The translations under genes were made by a program, and so were the position numbers. Source: a virus (taxonomy: Duplodnaviria; Heunggongvirae; Uroviricota; Caudoviricetes). Taken from it: a stretch of 38,856 nucleotides of DNA. Location of the stretch: positions 1 to 38,856 of IMG/VR virus record IMGVR_UViG_2513237219_000004, one strand, 5' to 3'. The number at the start of each line of letters is the position of its first letter. Within the stretch, counting starts at the first letter, position 1. The notes beneath the pieces were generated by a model. The model was not told the origin of the DNA. It made no database searches and worked only from the letters and a program-made list of their open reading frames with translations. This document shows positions 1 through 38,856 of this stretch, piece by piece.

Positions 1-1305
1 CTATGCTTGTTTAATTACATCTGATCCCACAGCGTGGGGCATGGATGGGGCAAACTCACTCAATTTCTGGTTTAAAATGGATACCTGATCCTGATTGTTT
101 TCTGCCATCCACGATCCGTAAACGCGATAAACCATCTGAGCATCAGAGTGTCCCATTTGCTTCGCGATGAAGTTAGGGTTAGCTCCAGCGGTCAAAGACC
201 AACATGCATAAGTGTGCCTGGACTGATATGCTTTGCGGTAGCGAATCCCGGCGCGTCGCATTGCAGTTTCCCATGACTGATTAATCGACCCAACTGCATA
301 ATGGTACCCGGCAAGGCCATTACGCGTAACGATTTGCGGATTGAAAACAAAAGTGCATGGATGCATTTCAGTTCGACCATACTCACGAAGTTTCACTTCA
401 ACCTGATACTGCTTACCAAGCCGTGTCATTTCAGCCTGATTCTTAAGCACGTCTATTGCTGGTTGAATTAGGTTGATAACACGGTTTGTTCCCGCTTCGG
501 TTTTAGGAAGAGTGAACTCTTTCGTTAATGTGTGGTTTCTTCTGATCGTCATTGTCCCTGCCTTCAGGTCTATATCTTCCCATGCCAGAGAAACCAACTC
601 CCCGTGGCGAACTCCCGTATAAACAGCCAGTGACCACATATTTTTTAACTGCTGATGCTTAAATGCGTTAATCAACCTGACAAATTCATCACGGGTTAAC
701 GGATCAGGTTCCGTTCGTGATCTCTTCAGTTGCGAAATGGCTGCGAACGGATTTTCTTTGATGTATCCGCTGTCGGCTGCGAACTGAAACATCCCCGCCA
801 TGGTGTTCATGTAGTTATTAACAGTTGGCACGGAACGTCCCTTAATGGGTGTTTTTTGCCCACGTTTCAGAACATGATATCCGGTCAGCAAATCCTTTCG
901 TATGAACAGCAGTTCTTCCTGAGTCACAGCAGATGCAAGTCTGTTGCCTCCGATTCGGGGAACCATATTTCTTACAATGGAGCTGTAACGCCCCATCGCA
1001 TTGGTACTGATTTCCAGCTTTTTCAGATCCAGCCATTTCTCAGCCAGGTCTGCGACGGTAATTTCCTTACTTTCCGCACCAAATTTTCTCAGGTTGGGAG
1101 AGTCCGGAAACTGAGCGGCATAGTCGAAATTACCCGTCTTAATGGAAAAACAAACAGATGCTCGTAGCTCGCCAGCTATTTTCCTGTTTTTTGGTGTATC
1201 CGGCACACCGAGACTTTCCCGCACTCGTGTGCCTTTATACATGAACCATATGCGGAGTGATCCGCCATGGTTCTCAACGCCTGTTGGGTATGCTGTCTTA
1301 GCCAT
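1..1305 (-). CDS. int: Tyrosine integrase
   Basis: 434-aa ORF with C-terminal R..H..R..Y-type catalytic region (HTYACWSL...GHSDAQMVYRVYGSW); GGAGGG RBS before ATG at 1305; stop at position 1-3. Confidence 0.9.
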   Translation of the reverse strand: MAKTAYPTGVENHGGSLRIWFMYKGTRVRESLGVPDTPKNRKIAGELRASVCFSIKTGNFDYAAQFPDSPNLRKFGAESKEITVADLAEKWLDLKKLEISTNAMGRYSSIVRNMVPRIGGNRLASAVTQEELLFIRKDLLTGYHVLKRGQKTPIKGRSVPTVNNYMNTMAGMFQFAADSGYIKENPFAAISQLKRSRTEPDPLTRDEFVRLINAFKHQQLKNMWSLAVYTGVRHGELVSLAWEDIDLKAGTMTIRRNHTLTKEFTLPKTEAGTNRVINLIQPAIDVLKNQAEMTRLGKQYQVEVKLREYGRTEMHPCTFVFNPQIVTRNGLAGYHYAVGSINQSWETAMRRAGIRYRKAYQSRHTYACWSLTAGANPNFIAKQMGHSDAQMVYRVYGSWMAENNQDQVSILNQKLSEFAPSMPHAVGSDVIKQA

Positions 1306-3474: not shown

Positions 3475-3854
3475 TCTCCTTTACCGGTGCCATAGGCAGA
3501 TAAGCACTCTTCAAATCCAGCCTGATTATCCGTTTGACCTAAACTGAAGCCATGCTGAAGACCATGACGAAATGCGCTATCTTGCAATTGATGTGCGCTA
3601 TCGAGCTTCGCTTCCAGTTCAGCGATTCGCTTCTCTGCGGTTTCCAACTCATCCAGCAGCGCCAGCACGGTGGCGGGGTTGGCTGCGGCGATAAATGCAG
3701 CATCACGCGCTTCGTTTTCACTGAATACCATGGCTATTTGCTCATGGTTCACGCCGTCAGTGGAGTAAATCTCATCGTCGAACTCAACAGCCCACCGGCC
3801 TTTCGTCGCCTTCTCCGCCGCTTCACGCAGAGCCTGGTAATTAATCTCGCTCAC
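3471..3854 (-). CDS. Ead/Ea22-like protein
   Basis: N-terminus SEINYQALREAAEKAT..., coiled-coil middle; GTG start with AAGGAGG RBS. Confidence 0.7.
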   Translation of the reverse strand: MSEINYQALREAAEKATKGRWAVEFDDEIYSTDGVNHEQIAMVFSENEARDAAFIAAANPATVLALLDELETAEKRIAELEAKLDSAHQLQDSAFRHGLQHGFSLGQTDNQAGFEECLSAYGTGKGE

Positions 3855-4561
3855 TGGTTGCCTCCTTTGCGAAGCTGGGCGGCGATATCTTCGAGAACGC
3901 CATCAGAGAATGAGCGGTCAAAATCGCCTTCCGGCGCATTAGCCATAAACTCAGTAGAGGTAAGAATCATCCTGGCAATATCCGCGGCGTTCTTTGCAGT
4001 ATCATCAATAAAACCAGCTTCCCAGGCAGCCAGCATTCTGTTCGCCACAAAGTAAGCTCCCTCCTTGCGTGCTTCAGTCTTCACTTCAGCCAGGAAAGCG
4101 TCGGTGGCCGGGGTTTTGTTATCTGACTCCAGCCACTGGTTGTAGTAATAATCGAACATGCCAGTAGGATAACCACATCCGCTGTGCACGTGGTCTTTCA
4201 TAGCAGAACCACACATGCAGTAGTCATTGTCAGTATTACTAATGATGTCGATAAGTTGCTGTGTCCGTTGCTTCAACATCGCATTCTCCGCCGCCAGCGC
4301 CGAAAACTTCTCGTGTGCCAACTTAACAGCTGCATCAGCCTGCTTAATTGACTCAGTCGCTTTCTGGTGGTCTTCGGCCAGCCCTGCTAAATCAGCCTCC
4401 AGTTCGGCTAGGCGTTCATTTAATGCATCTCGTTCATCCAGTAGAGCCAGCACAACCTGAGGTGTTACTTTCATACGAAATGCCAGCAATTTTTGAGGCG
4501 TTGCTACTGTTTCAATTGCTACTGCTGCCTCACGCAGTGCCTGATAGTCAATCTTGCTCAC
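3851..4561 (-). CDS. Ead/Ea22-like protein (paralog)
   Basis: Track ORF 3851..4642 trimmed to GTG at 4561 (VSKIDYQALREAA...) preceded by AAGGAGG; N-terminus parallels the neighbouring Ea22-like gene. Confidence 0.6.
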   Translation of the reverse strand: MSKIDYQALREAAVAIETVATPQKLLAFRMKVTPQVVLALLDERDALNERLAELEADLAGLAEDHQKATESIKQADAAVKLAHEKFSALAAENAMLKQRTQQLIDIISNTDNDYCMCGSAMKDHVHSGCGYPTGMFDYYYNQWLESDNKTPATDAFLAEVKTEARKEGAYFVANRMLAAWEAGFIDDTAKNAADIARMILTSTEFMANAPEGDFDRSFSDGVLEDIAAQLRKGGNQ

Positions 4562-9814: not shown

Positions 9815-9900
9815 ATATACCTACAGGTAAAAGTGTTGTCTATACCTGCAGGTAAATAAAATTGGTGTCAGAGTTTACCTGTTTGAATTTTCAGGTAATT
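9815..9900 (-). promoter_or_regulatory. OL/PL region with palindromic operator-like sites
   Basis: TACCTACAGGTA (9818..9829), perfect palindrome TACCTGCAGGTA (9843..9854), split TTACCTG-N9-CAGGTAA (9875..9897). Exact -35/-10 not resolved. Confidence 0.45.
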
Positions 9901-9951: not shown

Positions 9952-10248
9952 TCAGAAGCTATTTGGATTGCTTGGCCATTGCGGCAATTTTGATTCTACC
10001 GGGGTGTGTTTGGGTTTGAGTCCGTTTAAGTAGTCAAGACGCTCAATGGCGCATTTATACATAGCAATCTGATCTGATGACATGTCGTCATATGACATGC
10101 CTTTGAACTTCTTAATTATCGTTTCTGCCTCATGTATAAGATGCTTCTTCTTCATGAGTTCAGCTGTATGCTTAGAGCTTACAGGAGATAACTTTGCCCA
10201 TATGAAGCAGATGATTACAACAGCGACCACTATACCTGGTATAAACAT
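9952..10248 (-). CDS. Small single-pass membrane protein in rex slot, cotranscribed with repressor
   Basis: Track ORF 9952..10266 (TTG) with first ATG at 10248 (MFIPGIVVAVVIICFIW...); hydrophobic N-terminal helix; start abuts the repressor stop. Confidence 0.6.
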   Translation of the reverse strand: MFIPGIVVAVVIICFIWAKLSPVSSKHTAELMKKKHLIHEAETIIKKFKGMSYDDMSSDQIAMYKCAIERLDYLNGLKPKHTPVESKLPQWPSNPNSF

Positions 10249-10262
10249 TTGCTGCTTTATCC

Positions 10263-10784
10263 TCAAAATTTTGGCAGATCGTCCTGGTCTACGTACCTAG
10301 TGTGTTTCACAATAGCTGAAACAAAATGCATTTTATCAACTTCTTCAACAGGAAGAGTGATTGGACGGTGATCGCTGTTTATACTACTAAACTGATAGTC
10401 TCCGTCTCTTGTTTTGTTCATGATCTTTATCATGTTATGACCATCTTTGGTCCTTACAAAGACTTCATCACCTGGATGTACTGGCGTATTTGGTTCAATA
10501 ACAACATATTCTCCTGACTGAATCCTTGGCCACATGCTGTCACCCTTAACCTTCAGACCGTAAGCATCTTTATCGCCACTGTAGATGCTTAACCAACCGG
10601 ATCTGAATTCAATCATATCCACTGAGCCATCAACTCCCAAAACGGCTTCACCAATTACCGGAACAAAACCCGCACGAACGTTACCCGCAAACTCAAGATG
10701 GTCTGCAGATCCAACTTTGCTATCTGCAAGCATGTCCATCCATCCGCGTGGGAGATTAAAAGATTTTTCAATTAGTTCCATCAT
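10263..10784 (-). CDS. cI: S24 (LexA/CI-type) autopeptidase domain, C-terminal piece of CI-like repressor
   Basis: 173-aa ORF with GDSMWPRIQSGEYVVIE and GDEVFVRTKDG motifs; no HTH and no SD before its ATG; the frame stays open 36 codons upstream without a start. Confidence 0.75.
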   Translation of the reverse strand: MMELIEKSFNLPRGWMDMLADSKVGSADHLEFAGNVRAGFVPVIGEAVLGVDGSVDMIEFRSGWLSIYSGDKDAYGLKVKGDSMWPRIQSGEYVVIEPNTPVHPGDEVFVRTKDGHNMIKIMNKTRDGDYQFSSINSDHRPITLPVEEVDKMHFVSAIVKHTRYVDQDDLPKF

Positions 10785-10788
10785 ATCG

Positions 10789-10950
10789 TCAGCAATGCGT
10801 TTTTTTCCGTCTTTTTCCTTCCGGATACAGCATTCTGGAAACGTATGATGGTTCCCTTTCTATTCGACGAGCCAACTCTGAGGCCTTTCCATTACAGAAT
10901 CGGTCTCTTATCTCTATCAGCCTTAGTCGTCTTTGTTCGTATTTATCCAT
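10789..10950 (-). CDS. cI: HTH DNA-binding piece of CI-like repressor (53 codons, then TGA)
   Basis: Not in ORF track. Manual translation MDKYEQRRLRLIEIRDRFCNGKASELARRIEREPSYVSRMLYPEGKRRKKTHC; HTH-like GKASELARRIEREPSYVSRM; ATG 21 bp from an operator palindrome; ends in another frame just before the S24 ORF. Confidence 0.6.
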   Translation of the reverse strand: MDKYEQRRLRLIEIRDRFCNGKASELARRIEREPSYVSRMLYPEGKRRKKTHC

Positions 10951-10967
10951 GATTTAATTCTATCTTT

Positions 10968-11026
10968 GATTACCTATCGGTAAATAACCTGTGGGTATTG
11001 ATTTGTTTTTTACCTGCAGGTAAACT
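10968..11026. promoter_or_regulatory. OR region: operator palindromes with divergent PRM and PR
   Basis: TACCTATCGGTA (10971..10982), degenerate ACCTGTGGGT (10987..10996), TACCTGCAGGTA (11011..11022); PR candidate TTGATT-17-TAAACT (10998..11026); PRM candidate TTTACC/TAGAAT on minus strand. Confidence 0.5.
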
Positions 11027-11058: not shown

Positions 11059-11289
11059 ATGGAAGAACTCCGCTTGTATCTGAACTCCCTTTCACTGGAA
11101 GAGCAGAGAGAATTTGCCACCAAGTGCGGAACTTCTATCGGCTATTTGAGGAAAGCACTTAGCCGTAATCATGAATTGGGCGCAGCACTTTGTGTTCTGA
11201 TTGAGAAGTTCAGCAATGGTGAAGTGACTCGCAAAGACCTTCATCCGGTTGATTGGGAAAGCATCTGGCCTGAATTAATGGCTGCTTAA
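11059..11289 (+). CDS. cro: Cro-like HTH regulator
   Basis: 76-aa ORF, AGGAG RBS, HTH-like CGTSIGYLRKALS; first gene rightward of OR. Not lambda Cro. Confidence 0.7.
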   Translation: MEELRLYLNSLSLEEQREFATKCGTSIGYLRKALSRNHELGAALCVLIEKFSNGEVTRKDLHPVDWESIWPELMAA

Positions 11290-16913: not shown

Positions 16914-17272
16914 ACGAATATCAGTTTGTGCTTCCATACCCGCCGTCGGTGAATACCTACTGGCGAAGACGGGGAAGCCAATACTACATCAGCGATAAAG
17001 GCCAGAAATACCGAAAAGACGTTCAGCAAATCATCCGCCAACTCAAGTTAGACATTTTCACCAAATCACGACTCCGCATCAAAGTCATCGCAGACGTTCC
17101 AGACTCCCGCCGCCGCGACCTCGATAACATCCTGAAAGGTTTACTCGACTCCCTTATCCACGCCGGATTTGCGGAAGACGACGAGCAATTCGATGACATT
17201 CGCGTAATTCGTGGTGTGAAAGTACCAGGCGGACAGCTTGGAATAAAAATCACCGAACTGGAGAACGCATGA
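16910..17272 (+). CDS. rusA: RusA Holliday-junction resolvase
   Basis: 120 aa; LPYPPSVNTYW and DSRRRDLDNILK motifs match RusA. Confidence 0.85.
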   Translation: MNEYQFVLPYPPSVNTYWRRRGSQYYISDKGQKYRKDVQQIIRQLKLDIFTKSRLRIKVIADVPDSRRRDLDNILKGLLDSLIHAGFAEDDEQFDDIRVIRGVKVPGGQLGIKITELENA

Positions 17273-17457
17273 ACGCCACAATTCAAACGATACCAGAGCT
17301 TCTTATCCAGACACGAGGCAATCAGACCGAAGTGGCAAGGATGCTTTCCTGCGCAAGAGGAACAGTGCTCAAGTACAACCGAGACAACAAAGGCGAGCGT
17401 CACGTAATAGTTAACGGCGTCCTGATGGTCAAACAGGGCAAGAGGGGAAGACCATGA
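17269..17457 (+). CDS. ninH: NinH
   Basis: 62 aa; GNQTEVARMLSCARGTVLKY matches lambda NinH HTH. Confidence 0.8.
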   Translation: MNATIQTIPELLIQTRGNQTEVARMLSCARGTVLKYNRDNKGERHVIVNGVLMVKQGKRGRP

Positions 17458-18347: not shown

Positions 18348-18887
18348 ATATCTGCACAACAGGTAAGAGCATTGAACCCGCAGACCTCGCGGAATTGGTG
18401 AAAGGTGCCGCGCAGTGCTCTTATCGTTGTGGTGAATACGCAGGCTGATGCGTTAATCAGGTGAACGAGACACCCGCCGGTCCGTGATATGGCACACCGT
18501 GCCGGTCATATCTGCCGCGGTTAGGTTTACGAGGATTTCGTAAAGCTGGTCTAGGGTGAAGCCGTGAAAGCGGAGGAAGTAAAACGAGGCGTCGGTACAC
18601 GCCTATCGTCATTAAGTCGGAGTTCAGCACCGACCGCCACAACCCAAACTGAGCCGTAGCCACTGGCTGTCCTGAATTCATCAGTGATAGTTATGCTGCG
18701 GCCTTCTACACATGACCTTCGTGAAAGCGGGTGGCAGGAGGTTGCGCTAACAACCTCATGCCGTTTTGCCCGTGCATATCGGTCACGAACAAATCTGATT
18801 ACTAAACACAGTAGCCTGGATTTGTTCTATCAGTAATCGACCTTATTCCTAATTAAATAGAGCAAATCCCCTTATTGGGGGTAAGAC

Positions 18888-19211
18888 ATGAAGATGCCAG
18901 AAAAACATGACCTGTTAGCCGCCATTCTCGCGGCAAAGGAACAAGGCATCGGAGCAATCCTTGCGTTTGCAATGGCGTACCTTCGCGGCAGATATAATGG
19001 CGGTGCGTTTACAAAAACAGTAATCGACGCAACGATGTGCGCCATTATCGCCTGGTTCATTCGTGACCTTCTCGACTTCGCCGGACTAAGTAGCAATCTC
19101 GCTTATATAACGAGCGTGTTCATCGGCTACATCGGTACTGACTCGATTGGTTCGCTTATCAAACGCTTCGCTGCTAAAAAAGCCGGAGTAGAAGATGGTG
19201 GAAATCAATAA
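18888..19211 (+). CDS. S: Holin S (class I)
   Basis: 107 aa [36 protein letters not shown]... matches lambda S. Confidence 0.9.
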
Positions 19212-19671
19212 TCAACGTAAGGCGTTCCTTGATATGCTGGCGTGGTCAGAGGGAACTGATAACGGACGGCAGAAAACCAGAAATCATGGTTATGACGTCA
19301 TTGTTGGCGGAGAGCTATTCACTGATTACTCCGATCACCCTCGCAAACTTGTCACGCTAAACCCAAAACTCAAATCAACAGCAGCCGGACGTTACCAGCT
19401 TCTTTCCCGTTGGTGGGATGCCTACCGTAAGCAGCTTGGCCTGAAAGACTTCTCTCCCAAAAGCCAGGACGCTGTAGCTCTGCAGCAGATTAAAGAGCGT
19501 GGCGCTTTACCGATGATTGATCGCGGTGATATTCGTCAGGCTATCGACCGTTGCAGCAATATCTGGGCTTCACTGCCTGGCGCTGGTTATGGTCAGTTCG
19601 AGCATAAGGCTGACAGCCTGATTGCAAAATTCAAAGAAGCAGGCGGAACGGTCAGAGAGATTGAGGTATGA
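19195..19671 (+). CDS. R: Endolysin R (lytic transglycosylase)
   Basis: 158 aa [39 protein letters not shown]... matches lambda R. Confidence 0.9.
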
Positions 19672-20327: not shown

Positions 20328-20825
20328 ATGAAATCATTAACCCTCTTCAATCAACCAATTCGTATCGGTGAAGATGGCATGATCTGCCTCACTGATATGT
20401 GGAAAGCCAGTGGTAAAAGTGAATCTGAATCGCCTTACCACTACCTGCGAAACAAGCAGACCAAAGAGTTCTTAGCCGAGCTGGAGAAAAACCACGAATC
20501 TGTGGTTTTTACTGAGCGCGGTGTACACGGTGGAACATATGGCGGGAAGTTTGTTGCTTACGATTATGCGGCTTGGTTAAACCCCGGGTTCAAGTACGCG
20601 GCCTATAAAGTCCTCGATGACTACTTCACCGGAGAACTTCAGCATCGCAACAGCTTAAGTGCGCAGCTCAACATGAAATGTCATGAGTTTGACCAGAAGA
20701 AAGACATGGCGAGCTTCTGCGGACAAGGGCTGGCAGCATGGCGCTATACGAAGCCAGTGTTGGTCGCTGAGATTAACTCCCTGGCTAACCAGCTGCAGAT
20801 TACGATCCCCGGGCTTCCGGGATGA
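20328..20825 (+). CDS. KilA-N domain protein
   Basis: 165 aa; N-terminal LTLFNQPIRIGEDGMICLTDMWKASG recalled as KilA-N/Bro-N-like. Confidence 0.65.
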   Translation: MKSLTLFNQPIRIGEDGMICLTDMWKASGKSESESPYHYLRNKQTKEFLAELEKNHESVVFTERGVHGGTYGGKFVAYDYAAWLNPGFKYAAYKVLDDYFTGELQHRNSLSAQLNMKCHEFDQKKDMASFCGQGLAAWRYTKPVLVAEINSLANQLQITIPGLPG

Positions 20826-21097
20826 GTGATCGGGTTATTGAATGCGCCTCCAGAGCGGGGCGCGACTTCTCAGAGTTCATGAAAGGCGAGAAGGGCATGA
20901 TGGAAGCATTGGCCTCGGTGGATGAGTTTGGCGAGCAGCTGCGCCTCAACGGCTGTGTCAATCATCACTTTGTTAGCTACATGATGCGGAACTCGATCAT
21001 GCAGGCATTCATGGACATGGCAAAAGCCGAGAGGAAAGAAGAGCGCCGGCGTAAGCGAGCGGAAGCAAAAGCAAAAGCAAAAGCAAAAGTGAAGTAG
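20822..21097 (+). CDS. Hypothetical protein with C-terminal KAKAKAK tail
   Basis: 91-aa ORF, ATGA overlap with upstream gene; GCAAAA x4 DNA repeat at 21066..21089. Confidence 0.5.
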   Translation: MSDRVIECASRAGRDFSEFMKGEKGMMEALASVDEFGEQLRLNGCVNHHFVSYMMRNSIMQAFMDMAKAERKEERRRKRAEAKAKAKAKVK

Positions 21098-21322
21098 CCA
21101 TTACAAAGCCCATCTACGGGTGGGCTTGATAATGAAACCGGAATTTATTCTGGGCAACCAGTTACGGCAGTACCGCGAAACAACCCAAGCCAGTAAGTGG
21201 GGAAATAACACTGGCAGCCACTGAAAGATGAACCTCCTGCCTTATGGCAAAAAAGATTCTTTGTGGTGGCGGACTGATGGAAAGACATCCTAATCAAGCA
21301 ACCACTCCACAGGGTCATAATT

Positions 21323-21703
21323 ATGAACGACCAGCAAATCGAAAAAGAAATCGTTGAGAAAGGCAAAACCGCTCCGCGAGTTACCCCGCAGCACATCGAA
21401 GACGTGATTAAAAGCGAGCATTACTTTACTGCTTATGATGGACGAAATGGTGCCATTTCCAGCAACGAATATTGTGGCAGGGAAAAACCAGAAGAAGGCG
21501 ATCGTGATTTATCACCATTGAAGTTACTCACTTTCTGCGTACTGGTGCTGAAGAATGGCTTCACCGTCACCGGAGAGAGTGCCTGTGCAAGCCCTGAAAA
21601 CTTTGATGCAGAAATTGGTCGGAAGATTTCCCGGCAGAATGCTGTAAACAAAATCTGGATGCTCGAAGGTTACTTGCTGAAGCAGAAGCTAAGCGAACAG
21701 TAG
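21323..21703 (+). CDS. N4 Gp49 / Sf6 gp66-family protein
   Basis: 126 aa; MNDQQIEKEIVEKGKTAPRVTPQHIEDVI...FTVTGESACASPENFDAEIG recalled as Gp49/Gp66 family. Confidence 0.65.
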   Translation: MNDQQIEKEIVEKGKTAPRVTPQHIEDVIKSEHYFTAYDGRNGAISSNEYCGREKPEEGDRDLSPLKLLTFCVLVLKNGFTVTGESACASPENFDAEIGRKISRQNAVNKIWMLEGYLLKQKLSEQ

Positions 21704-24094: not shown

Positions 24095-26260
24095 ATGGCC
24101 GACGAAAACAGACTCAATTCCATTCTGTGTAAGTTTGACGCGGACTGGATGGCGAGCGATGAAGCCAGAACCGAGGCGACAAATGACCTGTATTTTAGCC
24201 GAGTGTCGCAATGGGATGACTGGCTATCAAACTACACTACCCTGCAATATCGCGGACAATTCGATGTTGTTCGCCCGGTGGTCAGGAAACTGGTCGCAGA
24301 GATGCGCCGGAACCCTATCGACGTTCTCTTCCGACCCAAAGACGGCGCTAATCCTGATGCTGCCGATGTGCTGATGGGGATGTATCGTACTGATATGCGC
24401 CATAACACGGCAAAAATTGCCGTTAACGTTGGCGTTCGTGAGCAGATAGAGTCCGGCGTTGGTGCATGGCGTCTGGTCACCCAGTACGAAGACAACGACC
24501 CAACAAGCAACAATCAGGTAATCCGACGCCTGCCAATCCATGAAGCCTGCTCACACGTCATATGGGACGCCAACAGCAAGCAGATGGATAAGAGCGACGC
24601 TAAGCACTGCACGGTGATTAACGCTTTGTCACGCAATGGCTGGAAAGAGTTCGCAGAGGATTACGGTATTGATCCTGACACCTTGCCATCTTTCCAGAAT
24701 CCGAACGATACATGGCTGTTTCCGTGGGTATCGAATGATGTCGTCTACGTCGCTGAGTATTACGAGGTCGAAGAGAAGAAAGAGAAAGTCTTCATCTACC
24801 GCGACCCGCTGACAGGTGAGCCGGTCAGCTATTACCAGCAGGATATCAAAGACGTCATCGACGACCTGGCTAATCGTGGATTCATTAAGGTAGCAGAGCG
24901 TAAGGTGAAGCGTCGGCGTGTGTATAAGTCGATCATCACCTGCACGCAGATACTGAAAGACCGCGAGAAGATAGCCGGAGAGCATATTCCAATCGTTCCA
25001 GTGTATGGCGAATGGTCATTCGCTGGTGACAAGGAGTGCTACGAAGGAGTGGTAAGGCTGACGAAAGACGGTCAACGCCTTCGTAACATGATCATGTCGT
25101 TCAACGCCGATATTGTTGCTCGTTCACCGAAGAAGAAACCGACCTTCTTCCCTGAGCAAATCGAAGGCTACGAATACATGTACGGTGGAAATGATGACTA
25201 TCCGTACTATCTGCAGAACAGGACCGATGAAAACGGTAACGACCTGCCGATTGGTCCAATCTCCTACATGGAAAACCCTGAAGTTCCGCAAGCCAACGCT
25301 TACATGCTTGAGGCTGCCACCAACGCAGTGAAAGAGGTGGCTAGTCTTGGTGTGGATGCGCAGGCAGCAAACTCTCAGGTCGCTTTCGATACCGTCAATC
25401 AACTGAACATGCGGGCAGACCTTGAGACATACGTGTTTCAGGATAACCTGGCTACCGCAATGCGACGTGATGGCGAGATTTATGCCTCAATGGTCAACGA
25501 TATTTATGACGTTCCTCGTCATGTAACGCTGACACTCGAAGATGGAAGCGAGAAAGACGTTCAACTCTATGCGCAAGTTGTCGATTACCAGTCCGGCAAT
25601 GTGGTCACACTCAACGACATTCGCGGTCGCTATGAGTGCTATACAGACGTTGGGCCATCCTTCCAGAGCATGAAGGAACAGAATCGCGCAGAGATTCAGG
25701 AGTTGCTAACCAAGGTTCCGCAAGGTACTCCAGAGTTCCAGATGCTGATGCTGCAATACTTCACGTTGCTTGACGGTAAAGGCGTCGAGATGATGCGAGA
25801 GTACGCGAACAAGCAACTGGTGATGATGGGGCTGAAGAAACCAGAAACACCTGAAGAGATGGAGATGGTGCAGCAGGCACAACAACAGCCGCAGCAGCCA
25901 TCAGCAGAGCAAATTCAGGCGCAGGGTATCCTTCTGCAAGGTCAGGCTGAATTGCTCAAGGCAGAGAACCAACAGGCGCAGATTCAGGTTGAAGCTGCCA
26001 AGGTTGAAGCTCAAAACCAACTCAACGCCGCGAAGATTGCAGAAATCTTCAACAATATGGACCTCGACAAGCAGGCAGAACTGCGTGAGTACCTCAAGCT
26101 CGTAGGTCAATTCCAGCAACAGCGCAGCAAAGATGCTCGTGCTAACGCTGAGCTGCTTCTTAAAGATGCAGACCAGACTCATTCACAACGCATGGATTTC
26201 GCGAATCTTATGCGTCAAGTTCAAATCCCCTCCGGCGGAGTAGCCGAGACACCTCAATAA
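24095..26260 (+). CDS. Portal protein (P22 gp1 type)
   Basis: 721 aa, strong match to P22 portal including Gln-rich C-terminal barrel region. Confidence 0.95.
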
Positions 26261-26273
26261 GAGAGAGTTAATC

Positions 26274-27185
26274 ATGGACCAAACCACCGACATTCAGGCT
26301 TCTGAAGAATTAACCATGCCCGGCAATCATGCAGCGGCATCTGCTGATGGCTTAGTTGTCGATAATGCCAACGACAACGCAGGTCAGGAAGAAGGCTTCG
26401 AGATTGTCCTGAAAGACGATGAGAAACCAAAACAAGACCCGGCAACTAATGCTGAATTTGCCCGTCGCCGCATCGAACGCAAACGCCAGCGTGAGCTTGA
26501 GCAGCAGATGGAAGCGGTTAAGCGTGGAGAGTTGCCGGAGCACCTGCGGGTGAACCCTGAGTTACCAAAACAACCAGACCCTAACGATTATCTTTCCGAA
26601 GATGCACTGGCTAAGTACGACTATGACCAGAGCCGCGCACTGGCTGCCTTCCAGCAGGCAAACAGTGAATGGCAGATCAAGGCTATGGACGCACGAAGCC
26701 AGGCTGTCGCCGAGCAGGGTCGCAAAACTCAGGAGTTCACCCAGCAATCAGCGCAATACGTCGAGGCAGCCCGTAAGCACTACGACGCAGCGGAAAAGCT
26801 CAATATCCCTGACTATCAGGAGAAAGAGGATGCATTCATGCAACTGGTGCCGCCAGCAGTCGGCGCCGACATCATGCGCCTCTTCCCGGAGAAATCCGCT
26901 GCACTCATGTATCACCTTGGTGCTAATCCTGAGAAAACACGCCAGTTGCTGGCGATGGACGGGCAATCCGCGCTGATTGAACTCACTCGACTGTCAGAAC
27001 GTTTAACTCTCAAGCCTCGAGCCAAGCCTGTTTCAGAAGCCCCGTTACCTGATGAACCCATTCAGGGGCACGCTGTTGCTGCAAATATCTCTGCGATTGA
27101 AAAGCAGATGGAAGCGGCAGCAAACAAAGGGGATGTAGAGACGTACCGCAAGCTCAAGGCGCAACTGAATAAAGGAATTCGATAA
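26274..27185 (+). CDS. Scaffolding protein (P22 gp8 type)
   Basis: 303 aa, acidic, position between portal and coat. Confidence 0.85.
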
Positions 27186-32530: not shown

Positions 32531-33826
32531 ATGGCTACGTGGCAAGGATCAAATGGCGGATTGTTAGCTGGTATCGGCGGCGTCAACTCAAACGCTCCGA
32601 GCGTAAATGACATCGGCAATACGCTTCAGCTTATCAGGCAGAACAATGATATTGAGCGTTCAGGCGCTAACAATGTTGGGCTGACTGCTTTGCAAGGTCT
32701 TTCAGGTATTGCAGGGGTGTTTCAGCAGGGAAAGCAGGCTCAGCGGCAGAAAGAATTTCAGCAGGCGTACGCTAATGCTTATGCGTCTGGTGATCGCGGT
32801 GCTTTGCGTCAGTTGGCTACTCAATATCCAGACCAGATTGAATCCGTTCGTAAAGGCATGGGATTCATTGATGAAGACCAGCGCAACTCTATCGGCACCT
32901 TAGCGGCTGGCGCTCGCCTTGCGTCATCATCTCCAGAAGCGATGCAATCATGGCTGCAAAACAACGCCAAGGAACTGACTCGCGTCGGTGTTGACCCTAA
33001 CAGCGTTGCTCAGATGTATCAGCAGAACCCTTCAGGATTTGGTGAGTTTGTTGATCACCTTGGAATGGCTGCTCTTGGTCCGATTGATTACTTCAATGTT
33101 CAGGACAAGATGGCAGGTCGTGAGATTGACCGAGGCAGGCTGGCAGAGACAATCCGCAGCAATCAGGCTGGAGAGGCGCTAACAGCGCGTGGTCAGGACA
33201 TCCAGATACGTGGACAGAACATCAGCGCACAGAATGCTGCTCTTTCCCGCGAAATACAAAGAGCAGAATTACAAGAAAAGGCTCTGGACAGACAAATAGC
33301 CAGAGAAAGCAATCAGTTAAAGCTTGAAGAGCTAAAACAGAAACAGGCAGATGTTCGGCAAAAGGCTGACATAGCCCGCGCTGACAGGCAGGCCGCCGCT
33401 CAGGGTGCAGTTGATACATTCAGCACCGCGCTTGATTCTCTCAACGAGATAGAGCAAAGCCCCGGCCTTTCAAAAGCAGTAGGAATTCGCTCAGCGTTTC
33501 CGACAGTTCCTGGCTCTGATGCAGCTAACTTTGAAGCAAGGCTCGACACCTTTAAAGCTCAAACATTCCTTCCTATGGTGCAGTCCCTTAAGGGTATGGG
33601 GGCTCTTTCAGATGCTGAGGGTAAAAAATTATCCGATGCGGTTGGTGCCCTAAGCCCCAAAATGAGTGAAAAGGCTTTTCGTGACTCTATCGGAAAGATT
33701 AGAAATCAGCTTGAAAGCAAGTTGAGCACTGTTAAAAAACAGTTTGATTATCAGGAGCCGGTGCAGAATATGCCAGGGCAACAATCTACTACTGGCAGTA
33801 ACTTTTCTTCACTATGGGGTGATTAA
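32531..33826 (+). CDS. Ejection protein (P22 gp20 type)
   Basis: 431 aa, position after gp7; coiled-coil rich. Confidence 0.75.
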   Translation: MATWQGSNGGLLAGIGGVNSNAPSVNDIGNTLQLIRQNNDIERSGANNVGLTALQGLSGIAGVFQQGKQAQRQKEFQQAYANAYASGDRGALRQLATQYPDQIESVRKGMGFIDEDQRNSIGTLAAGARLASSSPEAMQSWLQNNAKELTRVGVDPNSVAQMYQQNPSGFGEFVDHLGMAALGPIDYFNVQDKMAGREIDRGRLAETIRSNQAGEALTARGQDIQIRGQNISAQNAALSREIQRAELQEKALDRQIARESNQLKLEELKQKQADVRQKADIARADRQAAAQGAVDTFSTALDSLNEIEQSPGLSKAVGIRSAFPTVPGSDAANFEARLDTFKAQTFLPMVQSLKGMGALSDAEGKKLSDAVGALSPKMSEKAFRDSIGKIRNQLESKLSTVKKQFDYQEPVQNMPGQQSTTGSNFSSLWGD

Positions 33827-34185
33827 TGGCTAAAGCATGGAAAGATGTTATCGCCTCTCCACAGTATCAGGCGTTAGCACCAGAACAAAAAGCGCAGGCT
33901 CAGGAGCAATACTTCAATGAAGTCGTGGCCCCGCAAGCCGGAGAAAATGCAGAGCAGGCTAAGCAAGCTTTCTATGCTGCCTATCCATTGCCATCTGTGC
34001 AGACAGTGGAGACACAACAACCAGTATCACAGCAACAACCACAGCAAAGTGGATTTATGTCTGATCTTGGCGAAGCAGTAAAAGAGACTGGTCGCGGACT
34101 GGTGCAGGCTGGCGTGAACGTGGCAAACATACCTGCATCAGTTGCCGATGCTGTAACCAAGCGCGGCGGCTTGGGCTGGCGGTAA
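33826..34185 (+). CDS. Ejection protein gp16-like, N-terminal piece (frame 1)
   Basis: 119-aa ORF starting with TAATG overlap on gp20 stop; ends at TAA 34183..34185 while the next frame is already open from 34157. Confidence 0.55.
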   Translation: MAKAWKDVIASPQYQALAPEQKAQAQEQYFNEVVAPQAGENAEQAKQAFYAAYPLPSVQTVETQQPVSQQQPQQSGFMSDLGEAVKETGRGLVQAGVNVANIPASVADAVTKRGGLGWR

Positions 34186-34270
34186 ACTCGGTATTGGCGA
34201 TGGGACATATCAACCAGCACCACGAGTAACAACGCAGGGATTAGAGCAGGACTTTGGCCTTCAGCAAGGT

Positions 34271-35824
34271 GTGCTGACTCCACAAACGACAGAGGGAAGG
34301 GTATTTGCTGAAGCATTGCCTTACCTCACTCCTGCTGGCGTTGAGAGAGCGGCGGCACAGGCACCAACACTTGCTGGTCGAATTGCTCAGGGGGCAACTC
34401 GACTTCTCGCAGAAAACGCAGTTGGATCACTTGCTGCAAACAGTATGAAAGATGATGCGGAAGCACTCGCTACCGATTTAGGTGTTGGCGTTCTGGCAGG
34501 CGGCGCTATTAACGCTGCTGGACGTGGATTAGGTGCTGCTTATCGTGGCGTTCGCGGTGCTATTGCGCCAGAAGCGCAGCATGCTATCAGATTTGCAGAG
34601 CGTGAAGGAGTGCCTCTGCACACCACAGACCTGTTACAACCTACTTCCCGCGTCGGAAAAATGGCGCAAACGACAGCAGAAAATATCCCCCTGGCTGGCA
34701 CAAGCGGAATGAGAGCAACGCAACAGGAAGCGAGAAGCCAGTTGGTGCAGAGATTTGCTGATAAATTCGGTGAGTATGATCCAGCGGTTGTTATTGACAG
34801 CCTTAAAGCGAAAACATCAGGAATTCGTCGCGCCGCAGGAAATCGACTGGAGCAGGTTCAGAATGCCATGGCGGGAATAAACATTCAGCCTGCAAGAGCA
34901 ATTCAGCAGATTGATACAGAAATATCTAACCTGCAGAAGCTTGGTAAGGTTGCTGATAACGAGACTATTTCAAAACTTCAGTCCTATCGTGATGAGCTTG
35001 TTCGCAATGCTGGTCCTGATGGTCCGGTAAATCTGGATTTGAAGCAATTAAGCGATCTGCGCAGCCAGTTCAGAATGGACGTGAAGGGGGAGCGACCAGT
35101 GTTACCAAACCGTTCCGATGCTGCCATTCAGCGCGTTTACAAGGCAATGACCGACGATATCAATGGTGCCATTGGTCAGAATCTTGGCAACGATACTCTC
35201 CGTAAATATCAGCAAGCCAATGCCGTCTACGCTGACGAAGCGGCTAAACTAAAGAATACCAGGCTGAAGAATGTTCTCATGAAAGGCGACCTGACGCCGG
35301 AAGTTGTCAACAACATGCTATTCAGCAAGAACAAATCGGAAATTAAGACGCTGTATAACTCAGTTGGTCGTGTTGGCAGGGCGCAAATGCGCAATGGCAT
35401 CATTGGAAAGGCGATGGAGAAATCTGGCGGATCCCCTGACCAGTTCCTTCGGCAGCTTAATATCCTGCAAAACCAGACTGGCATCACATTTAAAGGTCAG
35501 GAAGCCGCTTATCTGAAAGGATTAAAAAACTACCTGCAATCCACGCAGCAGGCTGCAAAAGCGGCAATAACAACACCCACAGGGCAGCAAACTATCCCGT
35601 TCATTATTGGGTATGGGACGGCAATGAACCCGGCTACAACTGGCGCAGCAGTAAGCTACGGACTTCTTACTCGCGCCTATGAGAGCGAGCCATTCAGAAA
35701 TGCAATGCTCCGAATGGCAAACACCCCACGCGGATCGACAGCGTTTGAGAAAGCCATGCAGCAAGCGCAAAAAGCGATTAATGCACTGACGCAGGGTGCT
35801 AAGTCTGATTCGTTGTCAGAATAG
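34271..35824 (+). CDS. Ejection protein gp16-like, C-terminal piece (frame 2)
   Basis: 517-aa track ORF from a GTG without clear SD; its frame is open back to 34157 with no ATG, so it is probably the continuation of 33826..34185. Confidence 0.65.
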   Translation: MLTPQTTEGRVFAEALPYLTPAGVERAAAQAPTLAGRIAQGATRLLAENAVGSLAANSMKDDAEALATDLGVGVLAGGAINAAGRGLGAAYRGVRGAIAPEAQHAIRFAEREGVPLHTTDLLQPTSRVGKMAQTTAENIPLAGTSGMRATQQEARSQLVQRFADKFGEYDPAVVIDSLKAKTSGIRRAAGNRLEQVQNAMAGINIQPARAIQQIDTEISNLQKLGKVADNETISKLQSYRDELVRNAGPDGPVNLDLKQLSDLRSQFRMDVKGERPVLPNRSDAAIQRVYKAMTDDINGAIGQNLGNDTLRKYQQANAVYADEAAKLKNTRLKNVLMKGDLTPEVVNNMLFSKNKSEIKTLYNSVGRVGRAQMRNGIIGKAMEKSGGSPDQFLRQLNILQNQTGITFKGQEAAYLKGLKNYLQSTQQAAKAAITTPTGQQTIPFIIGYGTAMNPATTGAAVSYGLLTRAYESEPFRNAMLRMANTPRGSTAFEKAMQQAQKAINALTQGAKSDSLSE

Positions 35825-35914: not shown

Positions 35915-36400
35915 TTATCTGATGTTACTGCTACTGTTGCATGTTACCGTGTTTCCAAATCCTGAATTGCAGTTTGTATATGTGTCAACGCGTGTTGGGT
36001 AAGGTTGAGTTATAACAGGCTGGCGCGCTTTTTGCTCGATCGCTTGCATTGTGTTTACAGCCTGATAATTCAATAAAGCCTGCTGGAATGCTTGGCTTTG
36101 TGCTATTTGTTGGGCTTGTTCTTGGATTTGTAATTGAACATAAAGATTCTGAAGCTCAAGTCTTGCCTGTGCGTCACTTATCTTGCCTTCATCGACACCT
36201 TGCCCGAGCATCTTTGCAGCAAGGACATACAGCTTAGGTGTTGGTGCTGATGCCATGCGTGAGTCGTTCTTCACACTGGCATCAAGGCAATTAGCCATAT
36301 CGCTAAGCTTTTGATAGCGTTGTTCGCAACTTGCTTGATAGTCACTTACTTTTGCGCATCCAACCAGCAGAATCGGGATAATTAACAGTGATTTTTTCAT
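35915..36400 (-). CDS. Lipoprotein in the sieA/immI slot
   Basis: Track ORF 35915..36436 trimmed to ATG at 36400 after AAGGAG; signal peptide with lipobox LLVGC (MKKSLLIIPILLVGC); Gln-rich coiled-coil body. Confidence 0.7.
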   Translation of the reverse strand: MKKSLLIIPILLVGCAKVSDYQASCEQRYQKLSDMANCLDASVKNDSRMASAPTPKLYVLAAKMLGQGVDEGKISDAQARLELQNLYVQLQIQEQAQQIAQSQAFQQALLNYQAVNTMQAIEQKARQPVITQPYPTRVDTYTNCNSGFGNTVTCNSSSNIR

Positions 36401-36470
36401 ATGGTTAACTCTCCTTAGTTTTTCACAGGATATCATGAAGGCTATGCCATTTTAGCCGGAAACTAGATTT

Positions 36471-36737
36471 CTATGTTTCCTTTTTATTATTGCTATACAT
36501 GGTCTTAAGCGTATCAAAGACAATTTTCTTAACCATCTCAGATTGTTGTTCTGCTATACGCTCTGCATCGTCAATGTAAACGGATGCAGAGCTTTGTTTA
36601 GCCAATGATTCTTCAATCGCTGCAATTATCTCTGAGTTCAGCGATCTGTTATTCATCTTCGCACGCTGTTTAATTTTCGCGTGGAGTTCATGCGGAAGTC
36701 TCAAGTGAAACTGCGCCTCGTCGTATTTGCTGTACAT
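36471..36737 (-). CDS. mnt: Mnt-like ribbon-helix-helix repressor
   Basis: Internal ATG (MYSKYDEAQFHLRLPHELHAKIKQRAKMNNRSLNSE...DAERIAEQQSEMVKKIVFDTLK) resembles P22 Mnt by recall; GGTGAGG RBS. Confidence 0.75.
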   Translation of the reverse strand: MYSKYDEAQFHLRLPHELHAKIKQRAKMNNRSLNSEIIAAIEESLAKQSSASVYIDDAERIAEQQSEMVKKIVFDTLKTMYSNNKKET

Positions 36738-36810
36738 CCTTGATGCCTCACCAGTTGGGTGGAATGGCATCGTAACCTACTGGATAAATACTCAATAGTA
36801 CCATTTCGGT

Positions 36811-36858: not shown

Positions 36859-38856
36859 ATGTCAGATATCACCGCAAATGTTGTGGTAAGCATGCCTTCG
36901 CAACTCTTCACTATGGCTCGTTCTTTTAAAGCCGTAGCTAATGGAAAGATTTATATCGGAAAAATTGACACTGACCCGGTAAATCCTGAAAACCAGATTC
37001 AGGTTTATGTGGAGAACGAAGACGGCTCTCACGTTCCTGTATCGCAACCAATCATCATTAACGCTGCTGGTTACCCCGTATACAACGGACAGATTGCCAA
37101 GTTTGTAACTGTGCAAGGCCATTCTATGGCTGTTTATGATGCGTACGGTGCGCAGCAGTTCTATTTTCCTAATGTGCTGAAGTATGACCCGGATCAGTTA
37201 AGGCAAGAACTTTTAAGTTCAGATGATGGGCTTGGTGATTCATTAATCACAGTAAAACAACCTTTAATTAATTCTACAAAACGAACACAGCATGATAAAA
37301 ATGCAGAGAATATTAGTATTCTTGATTTTGTAAAACATGAAGATGTTAGCGACATTGTTAATGGCAATATTGACGCAACACACATATTTTCCTATGCATC
37401 TTCAGTTTCACCTGACGGTGTTTATGTTCCACAAGGTACTTATTTAATTGATGGCTATATTAATGGAAAATTTTATGGCCCTGGTAAAATAATACAAAGT
37501 AAAGGAGACGAACCTATTCCATTTGCAAATCCTGCTCAGACAATTGGAAATGTTTTTTTGGGTTTTGATGCTGGCAAGCTATATAATGGAAATGATATAT
37601 CTGGGCAAGTTGTTGCGATTGGACCAAGTGCTGGAAGAAACATTAGCACGGGCAATAACATTACAGCAATTGGGACAGGTGTATTATCAGGTGATACCCT
37701 TCAAGACGATCTCACAGATACATCGCCATGTACTGGCACTGAGATTGTAGCAATTGGTGTGAATGCGTGCAAAAAAGCAACCACAGCTAGTAACATAATT
37801 GGAATTGGGCGCGATGCCCTAAATGAAAATAAAGAAGGAAATTTTAATGTTGCAGTAGGATCAAGTGCATTACAACAACTTCATACTGGTAGTGGTAATG
37901 TTGCAATAGGTCGAGCGGCTGGAATGCGAGCTGGAATTGTTACAGACCAATCAGGCAAAAGGTTGTCTTATAACATTCTAAATAATAACACATTTATAGG
38001 CAATGCATCCGGAAGGGAGATTACAAATGGAGATAACAATACATATATTGGTAGCGGATCAGGAAGAGGGATTTCTTCTATAGATAACCCTTATACAGGC
38101 ACATCTACAGGTATGAATAATGTCGCAGTAGGAGCCGACTCACTTAATTCTATTGGTTCGGCAAGTAACAATGTAATGCTTGGATATAGATCTGGTAGAT
38201 CGTTAAGCTCTGGAACAGGTAATATATTTATCGGAACCAATGCTGGTTCGGCAATTTCTTCAGGTGACAACCAATTAATAATTGCTAATCAGAGCGGGCT
38301 CCCTTTTTTGAGTGGGTTGATGGGACCTGTTTCTGATGAGAATAATTATGCTCGTTTTGATGCGTCGGTACAACCAGCAACAGATAACGCTAGAAATTGC
38401 GGTTCAGCATCCAGAAGGTGGAATACAATATTTGCTGGCACTTCAACGATTAACACATCGGATGGTCGAGTTAAGACTGATAAAAGACCGATTACTGATG
38501 CAGAGAGACGTGTTGCATATAAAATAAAGGGTTTGGTTTGTTGTTTTAGATTTATAGATTCAGTAATTGAAAAAGGAGAAAATGCTAGATTACATTTTGG
38601 CATTATTGCCCAAGATGTATATAAAGCATTTGCTGAAGAAGGGCTTGATGCAAACGACTATGGTCTTTTTTGCTATGATAAATGGGAAACTGAATACGAA
38701 CCAGTAATTGCTAAAAAGATAATTTTTGATGAAGAATCCGGTGATGAAAAATTAATTGAATATGATACTGGAGAACGCAGAATATCTATAGAAGGGGGTG
38801 AGCGATATGGAATAAGATATGAAGAATTATTATGTTTTATAATATCTGCAATATAA
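36859..38856 (+). CDS. Tailspike: P22 gp9-like head-binding domain + Gly-rich repeat receptor-binding region + C-terminal intramolecular chaperone (S74-like)
   Basis: Internal ATG of track ORF 36811..38856; [47 protein letters not shown]... matches P22 gp9 N-terminus; C-terminus SDGRVKTD...[24 protein letters not shown] resembles S74 chaperone domains; distal two thirds AT-rich. Confidence 0.85.

What the first reader, a model, noticed from the sequence alone, without database searches (positions are those of the whole stretch)
10263..10950. CI-type repressor gene split by a frameshift in a homopolymer-rich stretch
An HTH piece (10789..10950, 53 codons) ends at TGA while the S24 autopeptidase piece (10263..10784) is open in the +1 frame from 10892 with no start of its own. 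Both frames are open across 10792..10892, which contains an A7 run (sense strand; T7 at 10800..10806) and an A5 run. Removing one A restores a single ~229-aa HTH+S24 repressor (...PEGKRRKKRIADDMMELIEK...). Either it is a homopolymer sequencing error, a genuine immunity-gene lesion, or slippage-dependent expression.
Basis: seen in the sequence. Interest (0 to 1): 0.8.

Follow-up and report, generated by a model that had tools for sequence, protein, structure and literature searches.

The report
Sequencing-error frameshift in prophage repressor
The split repressor gene is real in this record, but it is almost certainly a one-base error from old 454 sequencing: two independent assemblies of the same prophage and about 80 other copies of the gene are intact, so the finding is ordinary.

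Summary
The window is a P22-like prophage beside fliE in E. coli P12b (GenBank CP002291). That genome was sequenced in 2012 with 13.5x Roche 454 plus 2.9x Sanger reads.

The CI-type repressor gene (10263..10950, minus strand) is indeed split. The extra base is not in the A7 run, which every relative keeps. It is an A at 10810, one base after an A5 run and three bases before the A7 run.

All other copies found are intact: 52 E. coli genomes, mEp043, 25 IMG/VR contigs and 3 metagenome contigs. So are two independent assemblies of the same prophage, NCTC11106 and GCA_012746615.1. These match CP002291 with no substitutions over 22 kb.

A 454 flow-order simulation predicts exactly this base at exactly this position from reads of both strands. 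It is the only such site in the window. The record has two more private +1 insertions: one splits the essential gp16 ejection gene at 34157, and one at 4490 is intergenic. A published survey found sequencing-error frameshifts in five essential P12b genes.

Verdict: a sequencing artefact in an ordinary mEp043-type repressor (about 0.9). A genuine lesion or slippage-dependent expression is unlikely.

The parts
10263..10950 (-). CI-type (mEp043-immunity) repressor gene. It is 688 nt here and 687 nt (228 aa) in every other copy.
   Evidence: Pfam Peptidase_S24 E=1.4e-17 on the intact form. The AlphaFold model matches LexA and lambda cI by Foldseek.
10810..10810 (-). The extra base (A on the sense strand, T on the + strand) that causes the frameshift. 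Most likely a 454 phase-lag or carry-forward insertion.
   Evidence: Absent from all 4 aligned relatives, from NCTC11106 and GCA_012746615.1, and from L046-L049. Predicted by the flow-order simulation from both strands.
10812..10816 (-). A5 run one base upstream of the inserted A. Source of the phase lag for sense-direction reads.
10800..10806 (-). A7 run (T7 on the + strand). Its length is normal and it encodes Gly-Lys-Lys in the wild type. Source of the phase lag for reads of the other strand.
10789..10950 (-). Artefactual 53-codon ORF: 46 native residues (helices 1-3 of the DNA-binding domain) plus 7 out-of-frame residues (RRKKTHC).
   Evidence: This exact product is not on record anywhere.
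10263..10784 (-). Artefactual 173-codon ORF starting at Met55: helix 4, linker with the FAG cleavage-site motif, and the S24 domain.
   Evidence: The exact product is on record only in CP002291 and in an 872-nt contig that does not reach the frameshift site.
10971..11022 (.). OR region: palindromic operators TACCTATCGGTA (10971-10982) and TACCTGCAGGTA (11011-11022) between cI and cro, with a PRM-like promoter at 10984-10957.
   Evidence: 8 matches in the window against 0.67 expected
9818..9854 (.). OL region: operators TACCTACAGGTA (9818-9829) and TACCTGCAGGTA (9843-9854), overlapping a PL-like promoter at 9842-9814.
11059..11289 (+). Divergent cro-like gene (76 aa).
   Evidence: Annotated Cro in mEp043.
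9952..10248 (-). 98-aa gene just downstream of cI in the same operon, followed by a terminator-like hairpin at 9940-9924.
33826..35824 (+). Second gene split in this record only: the gp16-type DNA ejection protein. It is 665 aa when intact and is broken here by an extra C at 34157/34158 (AAC[C]AAG).
4490..4494 (.). Third private +1 insertion: T5 here against T4 in NCTC11106. Intergenic.

Best explanation
The gene is an ordinary, intact 228-aa lambdoid CI repressor of the mEp043 immunity type: an N-terminal helical DNA-binding domain, a flexible linker, and a C-terminal S24 Ser/Lys self-cleaving domain. It binds TACC-N4-GGTA operators at OR and OL. The apparent split is an error in GenBank record CP002291 (E. 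coli P12b), which was assembled from about 13.5x Roche 454 FLX reads plus 2.9x Sanger reads.

Proposed mechanism of the error (inferred): in pyrosequencing, templates that fall out of phase at a long homopolymer give a weak signal at the next flow of that base. This is read as one extra copy of the base, near the run but not next to it. With flow order T-A-C-G, a lag at the A5 run (sense reads) or at the T7 run (antisense reads) puts that spurious base at exactly 10810. Reads of both strands would then agree on the error, and it would survive the consensus.

Shown: the extra base, its uniqueness, the sequencing platform, the intact sister assemblies, and the fit to the simulation. Inferred: that the reads actually carried this error.
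For: (1) Source and platform. The window maps to CP002291.1 at about 1,189,730-1,228,585. PMC3378880 states 454 FLX, 238-nt reads, 13.5x, plus 2.86x Sanger.
(2) Uniqueness. All 52 E. coli complete-genome hits and 3 phage records align 860 nt to the 861-nt query. The 25 IMG/VR and 3 metagenome contigs all carry the 37-nt wild-type form of the site. The 53-aa frameshift product is not on record anywhere.
(3) The same prophage in independent assemblies. NCTC11106 (GCA_900448865.1, named) and GCA_012746615.1 carry it at the same fliE/fliD site, with an intact 228-aa cI and an intact 665-aa gp16. Over 22.0 kb, CP002291 differs from NCTC11106 by 0 substitutions and 1 gap. Over 36.3 kb of the window, all three indels are +1 insertions in CP002291, and the 19 substitutions sit in three small clusters.
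(4) Error signature. The inserted base matches the flanking homopolymers and is near but not adjacent to them, which is the published carry-forward pattern (PMC3764156). The flow simulation reproduces the exact base and position from both strands. For runs of 5 or more it is the only both-strand site among 136 predicted sites in 38.9 kb.
(5) Record quality. infC, dnaX, mukB, rplE and serS were found 'absent' only in P12B among 63 genomes. The authors attribute such cases to sequencing-error frameshifts (PMC5992433).
(6) Biology. A cI-null prophage with intact N, O, P, Q and lysis genes should not be maintained as a lysogen, and a gp16-null phage should not propagate lytically. The two lesions together fit no stable lifestyle (inference from lambda/P22 genetics).
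Against: No reads or flowgrams could be inspected. [quoted passage not shown] NCTC11106 is not shown to be the same strain as P12b, so a mutation private to P12b is not formally excluded. P12b is an old, much-subcultured type strain. The gp16 insertion (C to CC) and the 4490 insertion (T4 to T5) are generic overcalls without a site-specific prediction. The TACG flow order comes from my own knowledge, not from a tool.
Confidence: 0.9

Rival explanations
1. Genuine +1 insertion in the P12b prophage: a real immunity-gene lesion acquired recently in this lab-passaged type strain. The prophage would be kept silent by something else, such as a second prophage of the same immunity, or it would be on its way to loss.
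For: The base is present in the deposited record. P12b has a long history of subculture (reference cited). gp16 is also broken, as might be expected in a decaying prophage.
Against: The lesion is private to one 454-based record among more than 80 copies. Two near-identical sister prophages are intact. There are 0 substitutions but 1 indel over 22 kb, the reverse of a natural mutation spectrum. The position is the single most phase-error-prone site in the window. All lytic genes are intact, so a cI-null lysogen should be lethal (inference). The same record has frameshifts in five essential host genes that cannot be real.
Confidence: 0.07
2. Slippage-dependent expression: the frameshift is real, and full-length repressor is made at a low level by loss of one A during transcription of the A7 run, or by a +1 ribosomal slip on AAA-AAA-A. 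This would yield ...GKRRKKRI....
For: The A7 run lies 4 nt downstream of the insertion and upstream of the TGA stop. Both frames are open across it.
Against: No relative has this arrangement. The A7 run is simply the Gly-Lys-Lys codons of the wild type, and it is interrupted in homologs at about 85% identity that read GRK (alignment A2). The rescued product would replace Ser47-Gly48 in a conserved GK-x-G-x-KRI loop. To my knowledge seven A's is short for efficient slippage. No stimulatory element was found.
Confidence: 0.02
3. The DNA-binding part and the S24 part are naturally separate genes in this lineage.
For: A few database proteins of 147-189 aa cover only the C-terminal part.
Against: The 189-aa entries come from DNA with a fully intact 228-codon ORF. 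The gene caller merely chose Met40 as the start. Full-length proteins of 228-263 aa are the rule down to 53% identity.
Confidence: 0.01

Closest known systems
CI repressor of coliphage mEp043 (Aguilavirus mEp043; JQ182734, PV340537) and the same immunity module in E. coli prophages such as ECONIH4
   Same: 96.6% (mEp043) to 99.9% (ECONIH4) nucleotide identity over cI, the operators and cro. Same 228-aa protein and the same divergent cro, cII and N neighbours.
   Different: The window has one extra base at 10810. The rest of the phage is a P22-like podovirus rather than the mEp043 or lambda-like virion module, which is ordinary lambdoid mosaicism.
Lambda cI / LexA family of S24 self-cleaving repressors
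   Same: Pfam Peptidase_S24. Invariant Ser138 (GDSM) and Lys175. An FAG motif in a disordered linker. The model matches LexA (3k2z), lambda repressor (3bdn, 2hnf) and 186 CI.
   Different: The N-terminal domain is too divergent for any Pfam HTH model or for PDB sequence search. No cleavage or DNA-binding experiment exists for this protein.
454 pyrosequencing carry-forward / incomplete-extension insertion errors
   Same: A single-base insertion of the same base as a nearby homopolymer, near but not adjacent to it (definition in PMC3764156). The record was made with 454 FLX. The position is reproduced by flow simulation.
   Different: These errors are usually described in single reads. Here the error would have to dominate a consensus of about 13x, which is plausible because both read directions predict the same error, but this is unverified.
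Sequencing-error frameshifts in essential genes of the P12b record (Martinez-Carranza et al. 2018, PMC5992433)
   Same: Same GenBank record and the same class of defect: frameshifts that make genes look absent or split.
   Different: That survey covered only the 303 Keio essential genes and did not look at the prophage.

Membership tests
Lambda cI / LexA-type S24 repressor | C-terminal Peptidase_S24 domain | tested here: met
   PF00717, E=1.4e-17 on the intact form and 8.8e-18 on the window's 173-aa piece
Lambda cI / LexA-type S24 repressor | Ser/Lys catalytic dyad | tested here: met
   S138 (GDSM) and K175 are invariant in 29 homologs down to 52% identity. They are assigned to the dyad by homology only.
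Lambda cI / LexA-type S24 repressor | N-terminal helix-turn-helix DNA-binding domain | tested here: inconclusive
   No Pfam HTH hit. The AlphaFold model gives a four-helix N-terminal domain with pLDDT 85-92. Full-length Foldseek matches to LexA, lambda cI and 186 CI have a high rmsd because of domain orientation.
Lambda cI / LexA-type S24 repressor | Ala-Gly type cleavage site in a flexible linker | tested here: inconclusive
   An EFAG motif with invariant G89 lies in a segment with pLDDT below 50. Cleavage was not tested.
Lambda cI / LexA-type S24 repressor | Divergent cro and repeated palindromic operators on both sides of the gene | tested here: met
   TACC-N4-GGTA occurs twice between cI and cro and twice at PL, with 8 matches in the window against 0.67 expected.
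Lambda cI / LexA-type S24 repressor | Single uninterrupted reading frame | tested here: not met
   Split in this record. Intact in every other copy, including two assemblies of the same prophage.
454 phase-error (carry-forward / incomplete-extension) insertion artefact | Sequence produced by pyrosequencing | tested here: met
   PMC3378880: 454 FLX at 13.5x plus Sanger at 2.86x
454 phase-error (carry-forward / incomplete-extension) insertion artefact | Single inserted base identical to a nearby homopolymer, near but not adjacent to it | tested here: met
   AAAAAG[A]CGGAAAAAAA
454 phase-error (carry-forward / incomplete-extension) insertion artefact | Position predicted by the flow order | tested here: met
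   The simulation reproduces the base and position from both strands. It is the only both-strand site in the window for runs of 5 or more.
454 phase-error (carry-forward / incomplete-extension) insertion artefact | Absent from independent sequencing of the same DNA | tested here: met
   NCTC11106 and GCA_012746615.1 lack it and are otherwise identical over long stretches. Strain identity with P12b is not proven.
454 phase-error (carry-forward / incomplete-extension) insertion artefact | Low-quality or split read support at the site | not testable with these tools
   Reads and flowgrams are not available.
Programmed frameshift / transcriptional slippage gene | Split arrangement and slippery run conserved among homologs | tested here: not met
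   None of more than 80 copies is split. The A run is broken in GRK-type homologs.
Decaying (cryptic) prophage with a genuine repressor lesion | Lesion accompanied by a natural, substitution-dominated pattern of divergence, and by loss of lytic functions | tested here: not met
   0 substitutions against 1 indel over 22 kb. N, O, P, Q, holin, endolysin and Rz are all intact.

The most novel reading that the evidence does not exclude
The extra A is real in strain P12b. The lysogen survives because a small amount of full-length repressor is restored by slippage on the A7 run four bases downstream (one A lost in the mRNA, or a +1 ribosomal slip). This would make a leaky, slippage-dependent immunity switch.
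Probability: 0.02. Interest if true: 0.45.

Novelty: not a real feature. Interest (0 to 1): 0.04.

Why it matters
It matters mainly as quality control. This window comes from a 2012 454-era genome whose indel errors break genes: here the prophage repressor and an ejection protein, and elsewhere five essential host genes. Scans for pseudogenes, recoding sites or 'defective immunity' in this record will give false positives. The case also offers a reusable check. Simulating the 454 flow order singles out positions where both read directions predict the same spurious base, and the repressor 'frameshift' sits on the only such position in 38.9 kb. The gene itself is a routine member of a widespread mEp043-type immunity module.

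Tried and rejected
(1) A7 length change as the lesion. Rejected: every relative has A7.
(2) Natural split genes. The 189-aa database entries turned out to be alternative start calls on intact ORFs.
(3) Searching for the +A allele in other collections. None was found in IMG/VR or JGI/ENA metagenomes. The 53-aa product is not on record.
(4) Host-flank frameshifts as an independent measure of error rate. The 13.6 kb of flanking host DNA is identical to NCTC11106, so it is uninformative. Differences in gene calls there come from annotation, not sequence.
(5) PDB sequence search for the N-terminal domain gave only noise. Pfam found no HTH.
(6) The inverted-repeat tool found no operators with the settings used. 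A pattern search did.
(7) Look-ups of the O protein, the 173-aa ORF at 35915..36436 and the long tailspike ORF failed because the start codons on record differ.
(8) The portal look-up returned only more distant prophages, so window 24324-26857 was not compared with a sister assembly.
(9) The genome-contig scan was not used, because GTDB holds only one E. coli representative.

Full report
**Observation.** On the minus strand, a 53-codon ORF (10789..10950) ends at TGA. It is followed, in another frame, by a 173-codon ORF (10263..10784) with a Pfam Peptidase_S24 domain. The neighbours are those of a lambdoid immunity region:
- a divergent 76-aa cro-like gene (11059..11289);
- a lambda-type cII and a lambda-type N gene;
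- palindromic TACC-N4-GGTA operators, twice between cI and cro and twice at PL (8 matches in the window against 0.67 expected);
- promoter-like sites overlapping those operators, and a terminator-like hairpin after the small gene downstream of cI.

Two details are wrong. The S24 frame is open only from 10859, because a TAG stop lies at 10862-10860; it is not open from 10892. There are also ATG codons at 10784 and 10781.

**Where the lesion is.** I aligned the gene with the ECONIH4 prophage (99.9% identical) and two mEp043 records. All of them keep the A7 run. The window instead has an extra A at 10810, in the context AAAAAG[A]CGGAAAAAAA. The wild-type protein has 228 aa and reads ...YPEGKSGKKRIADD....

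An AlphaFold model of the intact protein (mean pLDDT 81) has this layout:
- helices at 3-18, 23-29, 34-40 and 54-63;
- a disordered linker at 75-93;
- a beta-rich S24 domain at 96-221.

The break at codon 47 is therefore inside the DNA-binding domain, not in the linker. The model matches LexA, lambda repressor and 186 CI in the PDB.

**How unusual the split is.** Every other copy found is intact:
- All 52 E. coli complete genomes and 3 phage records with this gene align 860 nt to the 861-nt query.
- A pattern allowing zero or one base at the site found 25 IMG/VR contigs and 3 metagenome contigs, all with the shorter wild-type form.
- The protein family is full-length (228-263 aa) down to 53% identity.
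- A few 189-aa database entries are start-codon choices on intact ORFs.
- The 53-aa frameshift product is not on record anywhere.

**What the window is.** It is a P22-like (Lederbergvirus-type) genome in prophage order, from the stop of int to the stop of the tailspike gene. An exact-protein look-up places it in GenBank CP002291.1, the E. coli P12b chromosome, beside fliE. That record contains the extra A. The genome paper states that it was sequenced with Roche 454 FLX (238-nt reads, 13.5x) plus 2.86x Sanger shotgun (PMC3378880).

**Other private defects in the record.** A whole-window comparison with 12 related genomes found only two clean, uncompensated frameshifting indels in coding sequence. 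One is the cI site. The other is an extra C at 34157/34158, which splits the gp16-type DNA ejection gene. The 40 relatives listed in those searches, including Sf6, all align one base short at that site.

**The same prophage in independent assemblies.** This is the decisive comparison. Two other assemblies carry this prophage at the same chromosomal site: GCA_900448865.1 (NCTC11106) and GCA_012746615.1. In both, cI is a 228-aa gene and gp16 a 665-aa gene.
- Over 22.0 kb (virion genes plus 10 kb of host DNA), CP002291 and NCTC11106 differ by 0 substitutions and one gap, the extra C.
- Over the 36.3 kb of the window that could be compared, there are three indels, all +1 insertions in CP002291 (4490, 10810, 34157). 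The 19 substitutions fall in three short clusters.

An indel-only difference against a background with no substitutions is what pyrosequencing error looks like. Natural divergence is dominated by substitutions (established knowledge).

**Mechanism of the error.** Carry-forward and incomplete-extension errors in 454 data are single-base insertions of the same base as a nearby homopolymer, near but not adjacent to it (PMC3764156). I simulated the T-A-C-G flow order, which I know from memory rather than from a tool.
- A lag at the A5 run in sense-direction reads reproduces the observed base at the observed position.
- A lag at the T7 run in reads of the opposite strand reproduces the same base at the same position.
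- Across the repaired window, runs of 5 or more predict 136 such sites from one strand or the other. Only one is predicted from both strands, and it is position 10810.

This would explain why the error survived a consensus of about 13x. The gp16 (C to CC) and 4490 (T4 to T5) insertions are ordinary overcalls.

**Independent evidence on record quality.** A survey of 303 essential genes in 63 E. coli genomes found infC, dnaX, mukB, rplE and serS 'absent' only in P12B. The authors showed by synteny that such genes are present but disrupted by sequencing-error frameshifts (PMC5992433). That is roughly one frameshift per 60 kb of essential coding sequence, which is compatible with two or three in this 38.9-kb window.

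**Biological plausibility (inference from lambda and P22 genetics).** N, O, P, Q, holin, endolysin and Rz are intact. A repressor-null prophage should therefore kill its host. A gp16-null phage cannot propagate lytically. Both lesions together fit neither lifestyle.

**Rivals.**
- A genuine P12b-specific mutation cannot be formally excluded without reads, and NCTC11106 is not proven to be the same strain. I give this about 0.07.
- Slippage-dependent expression has no comparative support. No other copy is split, and the A run is not conserved in homologs that read GRK. I give this about 0.02.
- Naturally separate genes are refuted.

**Verdict.** The feature is an artefact of the sequence record laid over an ordinary mEp043-type CI repressor. 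Interest is low. The useful outcomes are a warning about CP002291 and a simple flow-order test for 454-era frameshifts.

Noticed in passing
window 33826..35824 (extra C at 34157/34158): The gp16-type DNA ejection protein gene is split into a 119-codon ORF and a 517-codon ORF by a private +1 insertion (AAC[C]AAG). It is an intact 665-aa gene in NCTC11106, GCA_012746615.1 and Sf6, and the listed E. coli relatives lack the extra base.
   Followed up: yes
window 4490..4494: Third private +1 insertion: T5 here against T4 in NCTC11106. It lies in the spacer between the 207-aa Ead/Ea22-like gene and a 101-aa gene, and is a typical homopolymer overcall.
   Followed up: partly
window 3590-3593, 17053-17337, 20766-21475: All 19 substitutions between this record and NCTC11106 fall in three short clusters: an Ead/Ea22-like gene, the rusA/ninH region, and the KilA-N to gp49_66 region. 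GCA_012746615.1 shares the 17053-17337 variant with NCTC11106. This could be recombination patches exchanged with other lambdoid prophages, or misassembly of 454 reads from paralogous prophage DNA.
   Followed up: no
window 1..1305 and the flanks in L045/L063: The prophage sits directly beside fliE, with a 434-aa integrase carrying an Arm-DNA-bind_2 domain. Exactly the same integrase at the same site carries quite different lambdoid or P22-like prophages in other genomes (L043, L044). This is a shared attachment site with mosaic cargo.
   Followed up: partly
window 36859..38856: The tailspike has a P22-type head-binding N-terminus and a C-terminal Peptidase_S74 (intramolecular chaperone) domain. 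The receptor-binding part (37209 onward) had no match of 90% or more in the phage genomes fetched. The exact protein is on record only in P12b, NCTC11106 and GCA_012746615.1.
   Followed up: no
L009 19530..21140 (ECONIH4 prophage): The closest relative of the immunity region, the ECONIH4 prophage, is a lambda-like siphovirus with an ISSpu7-family IS1634-like element inserted between its TolA-like gene (18426..19394) and a hypothetical gene next to N. The same cI-cro module thus serves very different virion types.
   Followed up: no
window 35915..36770: Between gp16 and the tailspike there is an Arc/Mnt-type ribbon-helix-helix gene (36471..36770, minus strand) and a 161-173-aa gene of unknown function. 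No antirepressor (ant) gene was evident beside them, unlike the immI regions of P22 and Kapi1.
   Followed up: no
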